DNA of 63,372 nucleotides, counting the filler, from Reclinomonas americana ATCC 50394 (lineage: Eukaryota), in NCBI GenBank assembly GCA_048213135.1. It is 15 parts of 15 records of this genome, joined end to end, with 100 filler letters (N's around TTAATTAATTAA, not from the genome) between each part and the next. Parts side by side here need not be neighbours in the genome. Positions count along the whole stretch, not along the records: positions 34,054 to 55,662 come from AFZH01021422.1; 14 more parts are not named here. One strand, given 5' to 3'. Positions 37,259 to 54,471 of this stretch are shown in pieces. The first letter of the stretch is position 1; each line of letters begins with the position of its first letter. The notes under the pieces were generated by a model, which saw nothing but the letters and a program-made list of their open reading frames with translations, was not told where the DNA came from and ran no database searches. The translations under genes were made by a program, and so were the position numbers.

Positions 37259-40200
37259 ATGGGTGCTGCGCAGAGTGGAGCTGTGGCGGGCAATGATGGT
37301 GGAGGGAAGAGGTTTGTGATCTGTTGTTTGTTGTCTGATCGATCGCTGTGCAAACTCGCTCGCTTATTTCGCAGGAAGAGAGCATGTGGTATGGCGTTGA
37401 ATTGCGACGTGAAGGCACTGCGCGAGTTGGTGTCACGTAAGGGCGCACACACTCTGCTCAAGAAAGAGGAGATGCATGAGGGCGCTTCGGCATTTTACGC
37501 GGCCGCTCAGGAAGGCCATCTCTCTGTGTTGGAGTATTTGTGGGAGGAGAGTGGCGTCGGTCCGGAGCTCGCACAACTGGCCAACGACTATGGCTTGACG
37601 CCACTGATGTGCGCTGCCATCAAAGGGCGTCTGCAAGTGGTGGAGTGGTTGCTTGCCGATGAGCGACGATGTCCCCCGGAAATGGTGCGGGCCGCCACCA
37701 ATGATCGTTCCGACAATCCACAGTCCACTGCATTGCATTTTGCTGCCGACTGGGGCCACGAAGCCATTGTGCGACTCCTTGCCACACGCTTTCCCGACCT
37801 CATTCCCATGGTCAACAAGGAGGGCAAGACGGCGGCTCAATGGGCACGCGACTGTGGCAAGCAAGAAGTGGCCGAGTTGCTCGACCGCCTCGCTGCGCAG
37901 CAGCAAGCACCACCACGTCAAAAACAACAACAGCAGCCGCGGTCTCCACCTCCAGGTATCTCCCTTCCGTCTTTTTCTGCGACCTTTGTTGTTGTCTCAG
38001 TCCCTTATCTGCGATTCGTGACTGTGTGTTTCCTCATCCGCCCGCATCATCAAATTTGCTCCTGTACCAGCGCCAGCATCTCCACAGCAGCAGGTGAGGA
38101 GCTGTGCTCATTCTCCCACAGCATTCCGTTCGTGTGCTGTCTCATGCACGTGTTTCCATTCACTCTCTCGCTCTCTTTCAAATCTCCCGATTTCCATGCA
38201 GGCCGTGGACGCCGCCGCGGTGGTACGCCAGCTCGCCGACAAGGATGCGCTCATCGCCCAACTGCAGCGTGAGTATGACGCATATCGACGGGAGCGAGAA
38301 CAGCAGCAGTGGGAACTCGAGCGACAAGTTGAGCAACAACGACGGGAACACGAAGACATTGTCGGTCAACTACAGCAATCAAACACGGAATTACAGCAAG
38401 CTCACGCCACTTCCGAGCAACGAATCACTCAGCTACGACGCGAACTGGACCAGCAATCTCAATCACTCGATGATGAGCGACTGCGGTCTTCCGATCAGAC
38501 GCGTGAAATCGAGCGCTTGCGCCTAGAGAACGACGGCTTGCGCCGCGAGCTGTCCTCTCTCCAAGGTACGACTCATTCAGGTGCACGTCTTCTCTGCATA
38601 CTGTCACTCTGAACCTCTCTTTCTCCTTTCCCATCTGCAGCCGCAGATCCGAATCGCCTTCGCGAATACCCCTGGCCCGACATTCTCCGCGCCACCAACT
38701 CCTTCTCCGGCGACATGAAGGCTGGCGAAGGTGGCCAAGGTGACGTGTTTCTGTGCTGGCTAAATGAGGAAGATGTGGCTGTGAAGAGATTGGATCATGC
38801 CGCACCGTGGGCCATGGAGTCGTACGATGCGGAGGTGTGAGATGGCAGTAGGAGATGGGATTGGGGTTTACTTGTCTCACTCCCCCTTACCCCAGTTGAA
38901 CACGATTGGACGACTACATCATCGACGACTTGTCCCGTTGCTGGGATACTCCACGCTGGTGGAGGGCGATGCTGTGCGAGGTTGGTGCCTGGTGTATCGA
39001 GCAATGCGGTGAGTTGGTGGGGCAGATTGTGTCTTTTTCTGTCTCCTCGTTCCTTCTCTTCTCTTCTATAGCCTATCTGTCTCCCCGCTGTTCACTCTTC
39101 ACCTCCCTTCATTGTTTCTCTTTCTTTCTCTCACTCCTTGAAATAATAATCTGAATCTTCACTGATCCATACACAACACACCTTCCAGAGATCGTCATTC
39201 TTCTTCAACAAAGCACATTGTCTCCTCCTTTTGCTTCTTTCCTTTTCTCTTTCTCCTCTCTCCGCATGCCCTTCTTCCTCACTCACTCGCTTCGCACACA
39301 GTGGACAGGATCTGGAGGTGCGACTGATGAAGCGAGCGGCCGGCATGCAGCCACTGACGGTGGTGGAGCGTGTGCAAATCGGACTCGGCATTGTTGAGGG
39401 CATGTGTTTTTTGCATCAGGTGAGTGAGGCAACAGTCACCTCCGCTGCTTTGATTGGCGAGAACATTCATTGTTTGTGTCTTTGGTTGATGAGTACATCT
39501 TGAGATTCTTCTCTGCTCAATTGGTTGTGTCTTTGATTATTGTCAACAGAGTGGGCACTCGTCTTGTGCTCTTGTTTCCTGTCGTTGGATTGTGTTTCTT
39601 GTGTCTTCTCTCGTCGTGCTTCTCGCTCTTGACAGTTCACTTGCGGCTTCCTTCATTTGTGATCTGCTGCTCACGCTCGTGTCGGTAATCTTCCTTGTCT
39701 TCTCCTCACCCACGACCTTCCTTCGGATGACGAGTTCTTTGGTGTCATGCATTCTCGGATACCATCGCCCTCTCTCTCCAGATGTTCTTCCCTTCGACCA
39801 GCACCCTCACTCTCTCTCCACTCTCAGAACGGCGTCGTGCACCGCGATCTCAAACCATCCAACATTCTACTCGACAATCGATGCGAGCCACGCCTCGGTG
39901 ACTTTGGAATTGCGCGCATTTTCGACGAGGGGGGAGGTGAGTGTGTGTCTCAGCAGATGGGAGATTGCACGGGAGGATGCTTTTCCTCTTCATCGTTGTT
40001 GGCGTGCGTTGCACTCGCTCTGTTGTTTGCTTCTCACTTTTCTCTCGGTGTATCTATGCTGCACGAAGTTTCGTAGCACATGGAGCTGGTTCTCTTCGTC
40101 TTCGATTGGTGGAGTGCAATGCACTCGTTCTGTCGGTTCACGAGCTGAGGTGCATGTTTGTGTCTCGATGCATGTCTGCTTCTCACTACTTTCTCGGTCT

Positions 40201-41772
40201 CTGGCACATGGGGATGCGTCTCCTCTTCTTCGTTGTTGAATCCAACGCACTCATTCTCCAGATCCCCGAGCTGAGTTGCATGTTTGTGTCTCGATGATTC
40301 TCACTGTTCTCTCGGCCTCTTTGGTATTCGAAGGACACGGAGATGTGTTTCCGCTTCTTCTTTGTTGGAGTGCACTGCACTCGTTCTCTCGATCTTTGAG
40401 CTGCGGTGCTTGTTGACGATTCGGAGTCCTTCTTTCCCAACTGCTCTCTCGGTCTCCATGCTGCACGGGATTCCAATGCACATGGATGTGTGTCTCCTCC
40501 TCTTCTTTGTTGAAGGGCGTTGCACTCGCTTTGTCGAGCCTCGTCTCTTGCCACACTGAGCTGGACATTGGAGACTCTGTTTTCCACTGCCTTCTCTCTC
40601 TCTCTTTCTGTTCTACATGGGTATCCTTGCTCGTCGCAAAAGTGAGTGCACAACAGATGCTTTCATCAGGGGAGGAAAAGCTCGGTATGAGGTAACATGC
40701 CCTGTTGTGTGTGGTTCTTTCTCATTCTTGAGGGAGGCCTGGTTCGTGCATCGATCTCGCGAGCAAAGCAGTGTGTTGACTGCTCCTTCTTACTGTTTGC
40801 GTGCTCTCATTCTCTTTCGTTGAGTAATGGTTCAATGCTATTGCATTCGCAACTGTCTGATGCAACCGTGCATTGGCTTCTCCTTCTCATTCTCTGTTCA
40901 CCTGCTTGAAGAAACGCCTGCATCAGCGTTGTGATCCTTGAGAGGCCGTCATTGCTTTCTTGAGGCCAACAATTCCCTCAGGACACGACACTTTGCACGC
41001 CTGAATCTCACTTTCTGCAACGTGCGCGCTGCACCATCTTAACGTATTCTTAGCCTGTCTCTACTTCTCTCTCTCTCTCTCTCCCGCATTGGTCAGAATA
41101 TTGAGCGTGCACCTCACACAGACCGACTTTCTCGTGCATCGAGGATTAAGAAAGGAGAGAGAATGACAGATATCCTTGTCCACACTCTCGTGAAGCGTAA
41201 TGTCTCCCTGCACTTTTGAGGTAATCACTGTGCCGTTGTTGCGCCGTCTGAGAACATGACCTCCACTTGTCTTTCAACATCGTTCCTCTCCGTCCCTTGG
41301 ATGACCCACTCTCCTCGCCTTTCATAGACCCACCACCACACCGCCACCCACTCCGGCTCCCCGCACTACATCGACCCACTCTTCGTGCGCTCCGGCGACA
41401 TTCGCTCCTCCATGGATCTGCACGCTTTCGGCGTCATCTTGCTCCAGCTGCTGACCGGTCGCGAGGCACGCACACTGGTGGGACAAGCGGCGCGGTGGGA
41501 GCGATCACTCGACACCGTGGACGCTGCGGCCGAGGCCGATCGTGCTGCGGGTCAGTGGCCAGTGGATGTGGCGAGTGGGATGCTGCGGTTGGGGGTGCAG
41601 TTGCGTGTGAGGAGAAGGAGAGGGACAGGAGAAGAGTGGGCTCGTCACTCACTTTGCTTGCTTTCTGTGCAGATGCATGTCGCTGTTCTATGATCGACCA
41701 ACTGCGGTGGATGCGAGAACGGTGATGCGTGATCTACGAGAGAAACTGGGTGGCTTCACCATTGAGTTGTGA
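37259..41772 (+). CDS. Ankyrin repeat-coiled coil-Pelle/IRAK/RLK-type protein kinase, copy 1 (about 10 exons; N-terminal MGAAQS; apparent +1 frameshift after DFG)
   Basis: Exons encode ankyrin repeats ([20 protein letters not shown]), a Q/E/R-rich coiled coil, and the kinase motifs [64 protein letters not shown]. Confidence 0.85.
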
Positions 41773-53800: not shown

Positions 53801-54471
53801 GTAGACCTGTGATTTGTGCAGTGGGTGAGAGAAAGGTAAACGTGTACTCGTCTGTCTCCCCGTTGAGAGGGTGAGTTGCACAACAATTCTCGTCGCGGAG
53901 AGAAGAGACAGAATGGCATTGTTCACTCTCGCATGTGTGGCGATGGTGACTTGAGAGCGAGTTCACGAACAGAGAATGCATCTCTCTTCGTCATTCTCTT
54001 CTCATCCCTATCTCTCCCCGCGCACAGACCCACCACCACACCGCCAAGCACGCCGGTTCCTCGTACTACATCGACCCGCTGTTCGTCCGCTCGGGCGAGA
54101 TTCGTGCAGCCATGGATCTGCATGCATTTGGTGTCATCTTGCTGCAGCTGCTGACGGGTCGCGAGGCGCGCACGCTGGTGAGGCAGGCTGCGCAGTGGGA
54201 GCGGTCACTCGAGTCGGCGGACGGTGCGGAGGAGGCGGATCTTGCTGCGGGTGAGTGGCCGGCAGATGTGGCAAGTGGGATGTTGCGGTTGGGGGTGCAG
54301 TTGCGTCCGACGGAGAAGAGAGAGAGAGAGAAGAGTTGGTTCTCAACTCACTTCGCTTGCTATCTGTGCAGATGCATGTCGCTTTTCTATGACAGACCAA
54401 CTGCGGCGGAGGCGAGGATGGTGATGCGCGATCTGCGAGAGAGGCTCGGTGGATTCACCATGGAACTATGA
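50844..54471 (+). CDS. Ankyrin repeat-coiled coil-Pelle/IRAK/RLK-type kinase, copy 4 (intact)
   Basis: Same exon structure. Starts MSAARRG; kinase motifs complete; ends [12 protein letters not shown]. Confidence 0.9.

What the first reader, a model, noticed from the sequence alone, without database searches (positions are those of the whole stretch)
37259..54471. Tandem array of four ankyrin-coiled coil-Pelle/IRAK/RLK-type kinases: candidate diversifying intracellular sensor-kinase system in a protist
Seen in sequence: four head-to-tail paralogues with the same 10-exon layout (short N-terminal exon, about 4-5 ankyrin repeats, Q/P linker, coiled coil, kinase). No signal peptide or transmembrane helix is evident. 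Established knowledge: the kinase carries RLK/Pelle hallmarks, namely the pre-kinase motif [16 protein letters not shown] (compare plant RxFSxxELxxATxxFS), GEGGxGxVY, a Tyr gatekeeper (CLVY), [13 protein letters not shown](T/I)DP and [12 protein letters not shown]. It most resembles plant RLCK-IX/U-box kinases, which also have a coiled coil before the kinase. That family drives innate immunity in plants and animals. The ankyrin kinases I know (ILK, RIPK4/ANKK1, plant Raf-like ANK kinases) use other kinase clades. Inference: ankyrin sensor, coiled-coil oligomeriser and Pelle-type effector expanded like an R-gene cluster. I do not know this architecture from described systems.
Basis: partly seen in the sequence, partly recalled or inferred. 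Interest (0 to 1): 0.85.

Follow-up and report, generated by a model that had tools for sequence, protein, structure and literature searches.

The report
Tandem ankyrin–coiled-coil plant-type kinase genes
Four neighbouring gene copies in an unidentified flagellate eukaryote each encode a soluble kinase of the plant U-box-kinase type, fused to ankyrin repeats and a dimerising coiled coil; this is an unusual domain combination for a known kinase family, not a new kind of system.

Summary
Window 37259-54471 contains four head-to-tail paralogues, each with 10 GT-AG exons. Each encodes a 611-645 aa protein: short N-terminus, four ankyrin repeats plus an N-cap, Q/P linker, coiled coil, then a complete kinase. 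No transmembrane segment was found. The copies differ by 7-30% in DNA and by indels, so they are not collapsed alleles.

The kinase call is supported. Exon-by-exon searches of solved structures return almost only plant RLK/RLCK and IRAK kinases. In an unbiased search of 1.84 billion proteins and in a tree, the kinase falls with plant U-box kinases (PUB-VI/RLCK-IXb), a Mesostigma ankyrin-kinase-U-box protein and a haptophyte kinase-RING protein (support 99/95). An EST peptide labelled Reclinomonas americana is 67-70% identical and confirms the last splice junction and the C-terminus.

The sensor reading is not shown. The kinase is under strong purifying selection (dN/dS 0.07-0.13). Ankyrin changes cluster on canonical binding positions (16 of 23 against 27 of 117), but no dN/dS exceeds 1.

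The architecture is not unprecedented, because relatives carry ANK, WD40, LRR or USP modules. I rate it a new variant of a known kind, of moderate interest. Copy 1 needs an alternative donor at exon 8 or is frameshifted. No RNA data or whole genome were available.

The parts
37259..41772 (+). Copy 1, whole coding span (10 exons, 644 aa with the alternative exon 8 donor). It is the most divergent copy, and the only one starting M-G (Gly2, Ser6).
   Evidence: Model and translation. Divergence (dS about 0.5 to the others).
37375..37955 (+). Copy 1 exon 2: ankyrin-repeat domain and Q/P linker.
   Evidence: Homologous to copy 2 exon 2, which was scanned.
38071..38093 (+). Copy 1 exon 3: 23-nt mini-exon needed to join phase 1 to phase 0.
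   Evidence: AG/GT sites are conserved in all four copies. Inferred, no RNA evidence.
38202..38565 (+). Copy 1 exon 4: coiled coil (364 nt).
38641..41772 (+). Copy 1 exons 5-10: pre-kinase motif and kinase domain. Intron 8 is 1383 nt here, against 570-591 nt in the other copies.
39937..39946 (+). Copy 1 exon 8 donor region. The homologous GT at 39937 gives a frameshift (one extra G in a G run). The GT at 39945 (GTGTCT) restores the frame and adds 3 residues.
42448..46145 (+). Copy 2, whole coding span (645 aa, intact).
42552..43132 (+). Copy 2 exon 2: ankyrin domain (four repeats plus N-cap) and Q/P linker.
   Evidence: Pfam Ank_2 E 4.5e-21. AlphaFold2 model pLDDT 90.3.
43222..43244 (+). Copy 2 exon 3: 23-nt mini-exon.
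43356..43743 (+). Copy 2 exon 4: coiled coil (388 nt). It is 36 residues longer than in copy 3 because of an internal duplication.
   Evidence: Homodimer prediction 0.47 against best control 0.00.
43815..46145 (+). Copy 2 exons 5-10: pre-kinase motif and kinase domain.
46636..50293 (+). Copy 3, whole coding span (611 aa, intact). Exon 2 is 46769-47346, exon 3 is 47436-47458, exon 4 is 47570-47849, and exons 5-10 span 47919-50293.
50844..54471 (+). Copy 4, whole coding span (613 aa, intact). Exon 2 is 50979-51559, exon 3 is 51667-51689, exon 4 is 51799-52081, and exons 5-10 span 52156-54471.
34426..34590 (+). Isolated copy (73% identity) of the segment lying just upstream of the start codon of copies 3 and 4. 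It sits 2.7 kb upstream of copy 1 and may be a displaced 5' region or a remnant of a further unit.
   Evidence: blastn.

Best explanation
The locus is a tandem family of four paralogous genes. Each encodes a soluble, catalytically competent Ser/Thr kinase of the RLK/Pelle (IRAK) family. More precisely, the kinase belongs to the clade typified by plant U-box kinases (PUB-VI/RLCK-IXb).

Domain order:
- a short N-terminus;
- four ankyrin repeats with an N-cap;
- a Q/P-rich linker;
- a coiled coil of about 95-130 residues;
- the conserved pre-kinase motif;
- the kinase, followed directly by the stop codon.

Likely mechanism:
- The coiled coil forms a parallel, in-register homodimer that holds two kinase domains side by side. 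This would favour trans-autophosphorylation of the Ser/Thr/Tyr-rich activation segment (inferred).
- The concave face of the ankyrin domain recruits a protein partner or substrate (inferred).
- The paralogues differ mainly on that ankyrin face and in coiled-coil length (+28 and +36 residues). They therefore probably couple one conserved kinase output to different partners, and may prefer homodimers (inferred).
- Unlike its nearest relatives the protein has no E3 ligase (U-box/RING) domain in cis, so any link to ubiquitination would have to act in trans.

Shown here: the gene structure, the domains, the family affinity, the purifying selection and the modelled dimer. Inferred: catalytic activity, the partners and the biological role.
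For: Structure and copies:
- Four units are established.
- Copies 2-4 have open frames with GT-AG at all 27 junctions.

Domains:
- Exon 2 hits Pfam ankyrin families and exon 8 hits Pkinase.
- The ankyrin fold has pLDDT 90.3 with four helix pairs.
- No transmembrane segment is evident.

Catalytic motifs are all present: Gly loop, VAVK, the alpha-C Glu, HRD and DFG.

Family affinity:
- phmmer against solved structures with exon 9: 51 of the 60 best carry names of plant RLK/RLCK or IRAK, 5 have uninformative names and 4 are others. The first other hit, RIPK3, is at rank 49.
- Exon 5 profile: 42 of 45 hits are RLK/RLCK/IRAK, with IRAK1 best at E 3e-7.
- Exon 6 hits only BRI1 and SOBIR1 (6 of 6). 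Exon 7 hits only PBL2 (1 of 1, weak).
- The unbiased HMMER search of 1.84 billion representatives with exon 9 gave 405 hits at E<=1e-3.
- With the spliced kinase domain scored against those proteins, the best full-length matches are PUB51, PUB33 and RING-type E3/U-box kinases.
- In the careful ML tree of 42 rows, the window kinases sit inside a 25-row U-box/RING-kinase clade (UFBoot 99/SH-aLRT 95). Their sister is a Haptolina kinase-RING protein (91/96).
- The shared AG-x-WP and DPLF features are visible.

Expression-level support from a relative:
- The EST-derived peptide P0128 is labelled Reclinomonas americana.
- It is 67-70% identical over 97 residues.
- It runs uninterrupted across the predicted exon 9/10 junction and ends at the same C-terminus.

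Coiled coil:
- Two copies of the exon 4 peptide scored 0.47, against 0.00 for the best of 3 controls.
- The three runs agree in at least 95% of contacts, and partner pLDDT is 86.
- Contacts follow a 3-4 residue spacing and pair residue i with residue i.
- That mark was reached by 21 of 30 proteins solved as pairs of one chain and by 0 of 23 solved as single chains. On eukaryotes the figures were 17 of 29 and 0 of 30.
- A coiled coil may pass from likeness to solved ones.
- The same dimerising helical region is proposed for PUB33 (preprint passages).

Selection:
- dN/dS is 0.07-0.13 for the kinase, 0.11-0.27 for the coiled coil and 0.34-0.52 for the ankyrin domain.
- Ankyrin variation falls on canonical binding positions: 16 of 23 against 27 of 117 framework columns, Fisher p 3e-5.
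Against: - No RNA evidence exists for any junction in this organism. No sequencing run could be listed.
- The exon 9 donor is weak, and the 23-nt exon is inferred.
- Copy 1 may be a pseudogene, because its homologous exon 8 donor is out of frame.
- Exon 8 alone (36 aa) scores best with MAP kinases and NEK2, not RLKs, so the catalytic-loop sequence is not family-specific.
- The tree contains no IRAK, Raf, MLK, RIPK, LRRK or ILK references. Its rows were chosen by similarity to exon 9, so it tests placement among RLK-like proteins only.
- The window clade sits on a long branch (about 1.0).
- The usual Glu of the APE motif is Leu (DPLF), which could affect stability of the activation segment.
- The ankyrin binding positions were taken from recalled DARPin design positions.
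- The same positions are the least constrained in ankyrin repeats generally, so clustering there does not prove different partners.
- Word-based searches found no orthologue with the ankyrin exon (best 34% identity) and nothing with exon 5.
Confidence: 0.62

Rival explanations
1. The array is a diversifying intracellular sensor-kinase system analogous to an R-gene cluster. The ankyrin domains sense varied (for example pathogen-derived) ligands, the coiled coil oligomerises on sensing, and the Pelle-type kinase signals an immune-like response.
For: - The genes form a tandem array.
- Amino-acid changes cluster on canonical ankyrin binding positions: 16 of 23 against 27 of 117, p 3e-5.
- Non-synonymous divergence at those 23 codons (0.26-0.68) is 1.2-2.4 times the synonymous divergence of the 117 framework codons of the same exon (0.11-0.31).
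- Coiled-coil length differs between copies.
- Plant relatives (RLCK-IXb) are effector targets and immune regulators (abstracts and passages of 10.64898/2026.02.10.704836 and PMC12803775).
Against: - No dN/dS exceeds 1. It is 0.35-0.99 at the surface codons and 0.34-0.52 for the whole ankyrin domain.
- There are only four copies, and they are 78-87% identical in the ankyrin domain.
- No NB-ARC, NACHT, TIR or death domain was found in any exon scanned.
- Surface positions of ankyrin repeats are weakly constrained anyway.
- The modelled coiled coil looks like a constitutive dimer, not an induced oligomer.
- There are no expression or challenge data.
Confidence: 0.13
2. The genes are ordinary TKL ankyrin kinases of an already described type (ILK, Raf-like ANK kinases, RIPK4/ANKK1, or the oomycete ANK-TKL subfamily). 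The RLK/Pelle resemblance would then be superficial.
For: - ANK plus TKL kinases are common. A Phytophthora TKL has 15 ankyrin repeats N-terminal to its kinase (PMC3019232, passage).
- A fungal ANK-kinase (P0001) appeared.
- The exon 8 catalytic loop is generic.
Against: - No ILK, Raf, MLK, LRRK, RIPK4 or ANKK1 chain appears among the 60 best (exon 9) or the 45 (exon 5) solved-structure hits. Only RIPK3 (rank 49 onward) and MAP3K12 (last two rows) appear.
- The fungal ANK-kinase P0001 scores only 38 bits against the kinase domain, while U-box kinases score 111-151 bits.
- The tree places the window kinases inside the U-box/RING-kinase clade at 99/95.
Confidence: 0.04
3. The family is not native to this lineage. 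It would have been acquired by horizontal transfer from a green-lineage (streptophyte or other algal) donor, or the contig itself would come from an unsampled alga. In that case an RLCK-IXb-like kinase would be unremarkable.
For: - Nearly all named relatives are Viridiplantae: Closterium, Mesostigma and land plants.
- The branching order inside the 25-row clade is unresolved.
Against: - The nearest kinase is haptophyte (Haptolina, 91/96), and the only >50% identical sequence is an EST labelled as a jakobid.
- The neighbouring dynein heavy chain (DHC10-like) is no closer to green algae (Tetraselmis and Ulva, 53%) than to animals (up to 60%). Its best match is 58% over 92% of the query.
- Introns, GC content and repeats are uniform across the window.
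Confidence: 0.15
4. Part of the array is decaying. Copy 1, and possibly other copies, would be a transcribed or silent pseudogene, so the 'system' is effectively three genes or fewer.
For: - Copy 1 has a 1-nt shift at the homologous exon 8 donor.
- It has a 1383-nt intron 8 containing three 126-130 nt repeats.
- It shows the highest divergence.
Against: - An in-frame GT donor lies 8 nt downstream.
- Copy 1 still shows dN/dS 0.13 in the kinase against the other copies and has no internal stop.
- The extra G lies in a homopolymer and could be a sequencing error.
- Copies 2-4 are fully intact.
Confidence: 0.3

Closest known systems
Plant PUB-VI / RLCK-IXb U-box kinases (e.g. PUB33, PUB51, PUB34)
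   Same: - They give the best full-kinase-domain matches (111-151 bits) and fall in the same starred clade (99/95).
- They share the pre-kinase motif ahead of the Gly loop, the AG-x-WP motif, and the Y-x-D-P and [12 protein letters not shown] segments.
- They have a long alpha-helical region directly N-terminal to the kinase that is predicted to dimerise as a coiled coil (here; PUB33 preprint passages).
- They are cytoplasmic, with no transmembrane segment.
   Different: - The window proteins have no U-box. The stop codon follows the kinase in all four copies and in the related EST peptide.
- Ankyrin repeats replace the N-terminal USP domain.
- The APE Glu is replaced by Leu.
- Identity is only about 35-40%.
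- The host is not a land plant.
Mesostigma viride predicted protein P0241 (EukProt EP00899, 1502 aa)
   Same: - Ankyrin repeats lie N-terminal to a kinase of the same clade.
- It is the only 1 of 166 kinase relatives scanned that has ankyrin repeats.
   Different: - It has many more ankyrin repeats (residues about 374-700).
- It has a 40-residue insert in the activation segment and a C-terminal U-box.
- It does not group specifically with the window kinases in the tree, so the ankyrin fusion may be independent.
- It is a database prediction, and I found no description of it in print.
Haptolina ericina kinase-RING protein P0234 (MMETSP transcriptome; the 871-aa cluster member P0285 has the same domains)
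   Same: - Its kinase is sister to the window kinases (91/96).
- It shares the DPLF substitution and a similar activation segment.
   Different: - It carries a C-terminal RING finger and no ankyrin repeats.
- Its gatekeeper-aligned residue is Phe, not Tyr.
Animal IRAK/Pelle kinases
   Same: - IRAK1 is the best solved-structure match of exon 5 (E 3e-7).
- IRAK4, IRAK1 and IRAK3 fill much of the exon 9 list.
- A Tyr sits at the position aligned with the gatekeeper Tyr of RLK-type kinases. The gatekeeper assignment itself is recalled, not tested.
   Different: - The window proteins have no death domain.
- Plant RLK/RLCK chains outrank IRAK4 for exon 9.
- No IRAK sequence was available for the tree.
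Described ankyrin kinases (ILK, Raf-like ANK kinases, RIPK4/ANKK1, Phytophthora OS1 ANK-TKL, plant KEG)
   Same: They combine ankyrin repeats with a TKL-group kinase. In ILK and the Phytophthora protein the ankyrin repeats are also N-terminal (PMC3019232; ILK from recall).
   Different: - Their kinase lineages differ. None appears in the solved-structure hit lists.
- KEG has RING-kinase-ANK-HERC2 order. The domain content is stated in the PUB33 preprint; the order is recalled.
- RIPK4 and ANKK1 carry ankyrin repeats C-terminal to the kinase (recalled).

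Membership tests
RLK/Pelle (IRAK) family, TKL group | The kinase domain is more similar to RLK/Pelle/IRAK members than to any other kinase family. 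| tested here: met
   Solved structures:
- Exon 9: 51 of the 60 best are named RLK/RLCK/IRAK, and the first other family appears at rank 49.
- Exon 5 profile: 42 of 45.
- Exon 6: 6 of 6.
- Exon 8 is not discriminating, with MAPK and NEK2 on top.

Unbiased search: the named top hits are RLK-type proteins of plants and algae.
RLK/Pelle (IRAK) family, TKL group | Monophyly with RLK/Pelle/IRAK to the exclusion of Raf, MLK, RIPK, LRRK, ILK and STKR in a phylogeny with curated references. | not tested
   No reference sequences of those families could be obtained. The tree holds only RLK-like proteins and one fungal outgroup.
RLK/Pelle (IRAK) family, TKL group | A conserved juxta-kinase motif (x-F/Y-S-x-x-E/D-L/I-x-x-A-T-x-x-F-S) immediately before the Gly loop. 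| tested here: met
   It aligns column for column with PUB51, PUB33, Mesostigma and Haptolina sequences. The solved-structure matches of exon 5 start at query residues 5-12, that is, within this motif.
RLK/Pelle (IRAK) family, TKL group | A complete catalytic core (Gly loop, VAIK Lys, alpha-C Glu, HRD, DFG). | tested here: met
   All are present and invariant in the four copies. The APE Glu is Leu.
PUB-VI / RLCK-IXb | The kinase domain groups with U-box kinases. | tested here: met
   25-row clade at 99/95 in the careful tree. The best full-domain scores go to PUB51, PUB33 and RING-type E3 kinases.
PUB-VI / RLCK-IXb | [quoted passage not shown] | tested here: met
   The exon 4 peptide is modelled as a parallel in-register dimer, 0.47 against best control 0.00. 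The family feature was read in preprint passages.
PUB-VI / RLCK-IXb | A C-terminal U-box E3 ligase domain. | tested here: not met
   The stop codon falls about 10 residues after the end of the kinase domain in all four copies and in the EST peptide. Only 490-675 nt separate neighbouring copies. No U-box appears in any exon scanned. According to the preprint, only 9 of the 20 Arabidopsis RLCK-IXb proteins carry the U-box, so this fails PUB-VI but not RLCK-IXb.
PUB-VI / RLCK-IXb | An N-terminal USP (UspA) domain. | tested here: not met
   Exon 2 is ankyrin. No Usp hit was found.
ILK / Raf-like / RIPK4-ANKK1 ankyrin kinases | The kinase domain belongs to the ILK, Raf or RIPK lineage. | tested here: not met
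   None of these is among the solved-structure hits, except RIPK3 at ranks 49 and later.
KEG-type RING-kinase-ankyrin proteins | A RING domain plus HERC2-like repeats, with ankyrin repeats after the kinase. | tested here: not met
   No RING or HERC2 hit was found in the exons scanned, and the ankyrin repeats precede the kinase.
NLR / R-gene-like diversifying receptors | A nucleotide-binding oligomerisation domain, and positive selection on the recognition repeats. | tested here: not met
   No NB-ARC or NACHT domain was found in the exons scanned. dN/dS is below 1 everywhere. Clustering of changes on the ankyrin surface is suggestive only.

The most novel reading that the evidence does not exclude
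The clade of E3-linked or repeat-linked cytoplasmic RLK/Pelle kinases (RLCK-IXb-like) may be much older and wider than the plant lineage. It would then reach haptophytes and a deep-branching flagellate, possibly a jakobid. In this organism the clade would have been rebuilt into a small, tandemly evolving set of ankyrin-guided dimeric kinases. Their recognition surfaces would diversify under selection while gene conversion keeps the scaffold uniform. This would amount to an intracellular partner- or ligand-sensing kinase family parallel to plant RLCK immune hubs.
Probability: 0.12. Interest if true: 0.72.

Novelty: new variant of a known kind. Interest (0 to 1): 0.42.

Why it matters
RLK/Pelle kinases are central to plant and animal innate immunity, and their history outside those two groups is poorly mapped. 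This locus adds a well-preserved, apparently active RLCK-IXb-like kinase in a eukaryote that is not evidently a plant. Its nearest relatives are a haptophyte protein and an EST labelled as jakobid. That bears on whether the clade predates the plant lineage or spread by gene transfer.

The locus also shows how modular the clade is. USP, WD40, LRR or ankyrin modules occur in front of the kinase, and a U-box, a RING or nothing occurs behind it. The four paralogues form a natural series: same kinase, different ankyrin surface and different coiled-coil length. That series could be used to ask how partner choice is encoded.

None of this is a new kind of system, and the immune-sensor idea remains speculative.

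Tried and rejected
- Whole-genome search: no genome is held for this window. Paralogues could therefore not be counted genome-wide.
- Sequencing runs: none was listed for window 42400-52399, and no RNA holder was listed. Read laying was therefore not used, and no junction is confirmed by this organism's RNA.
- The search for homologous proteins with the ankyrin exon (longer proteins): 160 hits, all generic ankyrin proteins at 34% identity or less, and no orthologue.
- The search for homologous proteins with the four-copy exon 5 alignment: 138 candidates, none at E<=0.01.
- The search for homologous proteins with the dynein ORF, to place the organism: 342 hits at E<=1e-30. The best match was 58% identity over 92% of the query, spread evenly over eukaryotes, so the taxon stays unresolved.
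- The protein atlas with exon 9 gave only generic PK_Tyr_Ser-Thr clusters, commonest in Streptophyta.
- Earlier findings of this scan: three look-ups, nothing returned.
- Literature. I found no paper describing an ANK-coiled coil-RLCK-IX-type kinase. The searches were 'RLK Pelle/ankyrin/IRAK/protist' (13 papers), 'Reclinomonas americana/nuclear genome/kinase', 'RLCK-IX/U-box/kinase/algae' and 'RLK Pelle/haptophyte/IRAK/origin' (3 papers). Only CC-licensed PMC papers and bioRxiv are covered. The preprint's supplementary trees could not be seen.
- Direct splicing of exon 2 to exon 4 was rejected: phase 1 meets phase 0, and no in-phase GT lies nearby.
- The alternative exon 9 donor (CG|GTTGGG) was rejected, because the EST peptide reads through the junction produced by the CA|GTTGCG donor.
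- A misassembly or collapsed-allele reading was rejected: divergence is 7-30%, indels are copy-specific and dS is 0.30-0.54.
- N-myristoylation as a general membrane anchor was rejected, since only copy 1 has Gly2.

Full report
**Observation**

The region 37259-54471 holds four head-to-tail units. Direct-repeat families recur with spacings of about 5177, 4217 and 4210 nt, at 60-94% identity to the reference copy. A four-way alignment shows similarity through both exons and introns. blastn of one unit against the whole window finds four full units and nothing more, apart from a 165-176 nt copy of the unit's upstream segment at 34426-34590.

From the alignment I set exon limits by coordinates and checked them for GT/AG and an open frame. 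Every copy has ten exons of nearly the same sizes. Copies 2-4 are intact.

In copy 1 the donor homologous to the other copies' exon 8 donor is displaced by one extra G and breaks the frame. A GTGTCT donor 8 nt downstream keeps the frame. The exon 9 donor is a weak GTTGCG, conserved in all four copies.

**Protein anatomy**

The proteins are 611-645 aa long.

- Exon 2 matches Pfam ankyrin families (Ank_2, E 4.5e-21). It folds with pLDDT 90.3 into four helix-pair repeats preceded by capping helices.
- A Q/P-rich linker and a 23-nt mini-exon follow.
- Exon 4 encodes 93-129 residues. When given as two copies it is modelled as a parallel, in-register coiled-coil dimer, scoring 0.47 against 0.00 for the best of three controls. 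The runs agree in at least 95% of contacts, and partner pLDDT is 86. That mark was reached by 21 of 30 proteins solved as homo-pairs and by 0 of 23 solved as single chains. The eukaryote figures were 17 of 29 and 0 of 30. A coiled coil may pass by likeness to solved ones.
- Exons 5-10 encode the pre-kinase motif and a complete kinase: Gly loop, VAVK, alpha-C Glu, [12 protein letters not shown] and DFG. The usual Glu of the APE motif is Leu.
- No 19-residue window exceeds a hydropathy of 1.39, so no transmembrane helix is evident.
- Only copy 1 begins M-G, with Ser at position 6. By the recalled consensus this is a possible myristoylation site. Copies 2-4 begin M-S.

**Which kinase**

Spliced proteins could not be handed to the search tools, so I searched exon by exon.

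- Solved structures, exon 9: 51 of the 60 best distinct chains are named plant RLK/RLCK or IRAK. Five have uninformative names. The first other family (RIPK3) is at rank 49.
- Solved structures, exon 5: a four-copy profile gives 42 of 45 hits to RLK/RLCK/IRAK, with IRAK1 best at E 3e-7.
- Exon 6 hits only BRI1 and SOBIR1, and exon 7 hits only PBL2, weakly.
- Exon 8 (36 aa, the catalytic loop) is generic and scores best with MAP kinases and NEK2.
- An index-free HMMER search of 1.84 billion representatives with exon 9 gave 405 hits at E<=1e-3.

Of the 30 representatives whose names I looked up, most are land-plant proteins, several of them U-box kinases (PUB51, PUB33, PUB34-like, PUB57-like, 'RING-type E3'). 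Three are from Closterium. One each comes from Mesostigma viride, the haptophyte Haptolina ericina and an EST set labelled Reclinomonas americana.

Scoring the spliced kinase domain against these proteins in the script box put U-box kinases first, at 111-151 bits. In a careful ML tree of 42 rows the four window kinases form one clade (100/100). Their sister is the Haptolina kinase-RING protein (91/96). Both sit within a 25-row clade (99/95) holding the plant U-box kinases and the Mesostigma protein, apart from 16 other RLK-like rows. The quick tree of 62 rows agreed.

The alignment shows the shared pre-kinase motif, the AG-x-WP motif and, with Haptolina only, the DPLF change.

There are limits to this placement. 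The rows were chosen by likeness to exon 9. No IRAK, Raf, MLK, RIPK or ILK sequence was available for the tree. The window clade has a long stem.

**Support from a relative's cDNA**

The peptide P0128, predicted from an EST, is 67-70% identical to the last 97 residues of all four models. It runs without a gap across the predicted exon 9/10 junction and ends with the same C-terminal residues. This supports the weak donor and shows that the protein really ends after the kinase, without a U-box.

**Architecture among relatives**

- Of 166 kinase relatives scanned with the window's ankyrin domain, one has ankyrin repeats. It is the Mesostigma protein P0241, which is ANK-kinase-U-box.
- Other members of the same clade carry WD40 repeats (P0173, P0231) or LRR_6 repeats (P0142) with the kinase. 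Still others carry Usp, U-box or RING.
- Passages of a 2026 preprint describe PUB-VI/RLCK-IXb as USP, a long alpha-helical domain, RLCK and U-box. The helical domain is predicted to dimerise as a coiled coil. The preprint also mentions KEG as a singleton with E3, kinase and ankyrin repeats.
- The Phytophthora kinome paper reports five IRAK-like kinases and a TKL with 15 N-terminal ankyrin repeats.

The window's combination is therefore a new arrangement within a modular clade, not an unknown kind of protein.

**Evolution of the copies**

- Pairwise dS is 0.30-0.54, and copy 1 is the outlier.
- dN/dS is 0.07-0.13 in the kinase, 0.11-0.27 in the coiled coil and 0.34-0.52 in the ankyrin domain.
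- Within the ankyrin domain, 16 of 23 columns at canonical target-binding positions vary, against 27 of 117 other columns (Fisher p 3e-5). The positions used (2, 3, 5, 13, 14 and 33 of each repeat) are recalled from designed-ankyrin work.
- dN/dS at those codons is 0.35-0.99.
- Their dN is 1.2-2.4 times the dS of the framework codons of the same exon. Framework dS is low (0.11-0.31), which hints at gene conversion of the scaffold.

This fits divergence of binding specificity but does not prove positive selection. Coiled-coil length also differs between copies: copy 1 is 28 residues and copy 2 is 36 residues longer than copy 3.

**Organism**

No genome is held and no sequencing run was listed. 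The window starts with an axonemal dynein heavy chain of the DHC10 type. Its best match is 58% identical over 92% of the query, and plants, animals, oomycetes and excavates all lie at 48-60%. The organism is thus a flagellate eukaryote without close sampled relatives. The EST match hints at a jakobid but does not show it.

**Verdict**

The 'sensor' and 'R-gene-like' reading is a hypothesis with weak support. The claim of an unknown architecture is overstated.

The most likely working model is a constitutive coiled-coil dimer of an active RLCK-IXb-like kinase that is guided to paralogue-specific partners by its ankyrin face.

I rate the novelty as a new variant of a known kind, and the interest as moderate.

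Noticed in passing
window 708-3751 (+): Exons of an axonemal dynein heavy chain of the DHC10 type. Pfam finds Dynein_heavy and AAA_lid_11 in 2921-3748. The 708-1781 ORF is at most 58% identical (over 92% of the query) to anything in the protein collection, and is about equally distant from all eukaryote groups.
   Followed up: partly
window, 14 places (e.g. 1784-1883, 33954-34053, 55663-55762): Paired runs of 44 N separated by 12 bases (28 runs, 1232 N in all). They mostly lie inside (CT)n/(GA)n or similar simple repeats, so they look like masked or withheld stretches rather than assembly gaps.
   Followed up: no
window 40115-40436 (+), intron 8 of copy 1: Three tandem copies of a 126-130 nt element, related to a single copy in intron 8 of the other three genes. 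This accounts for part of the 1383-nt intron of copy 1.
   Followed up: no
window 34426-34590 (+): A 165-176 nt segment, 73% identical to the sequence just upstream of the start codons of copies 3 and 4. It lies 2.7 kb upstream of copy 1, with a proline-rich minus-strand ORF (35179-36180, no Pfam hit) in between.
   Followed up: partly
window 60143-61015 (-): A WD40-repeat protein exon (Pfam WD40, E 2.1e-33).
   Followed up: partly
window 8300-8830, 13180-14010, 18780-25480, 27610-34640, 54500-59750: Very long low-complexity tracts rich in CT/GA and CA/GT dinucleotide repeats, with strong strand skews (GC skew up to 0.44 at 24-26 kb). Large ORFs there are repeat artefacts. Four large ORFs elsewhere in the window (in 9912-10940, 16511-17986, 55123-55662 and 57147-57995, all minus strand) have no Pfam match.
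   Followed up: partly
proteins P0121-P0127, P0129 (relatives, not the window): Many top hits of the exon 9 search are Closterium and Asteraceae predicted proteins with 3-6 kinase-domain matches each. They are either true tandem-kinase proteins or fused predictions across tandem arrays. The Closterium protein P0121 also carries MORN repeats.
   Followed up: no
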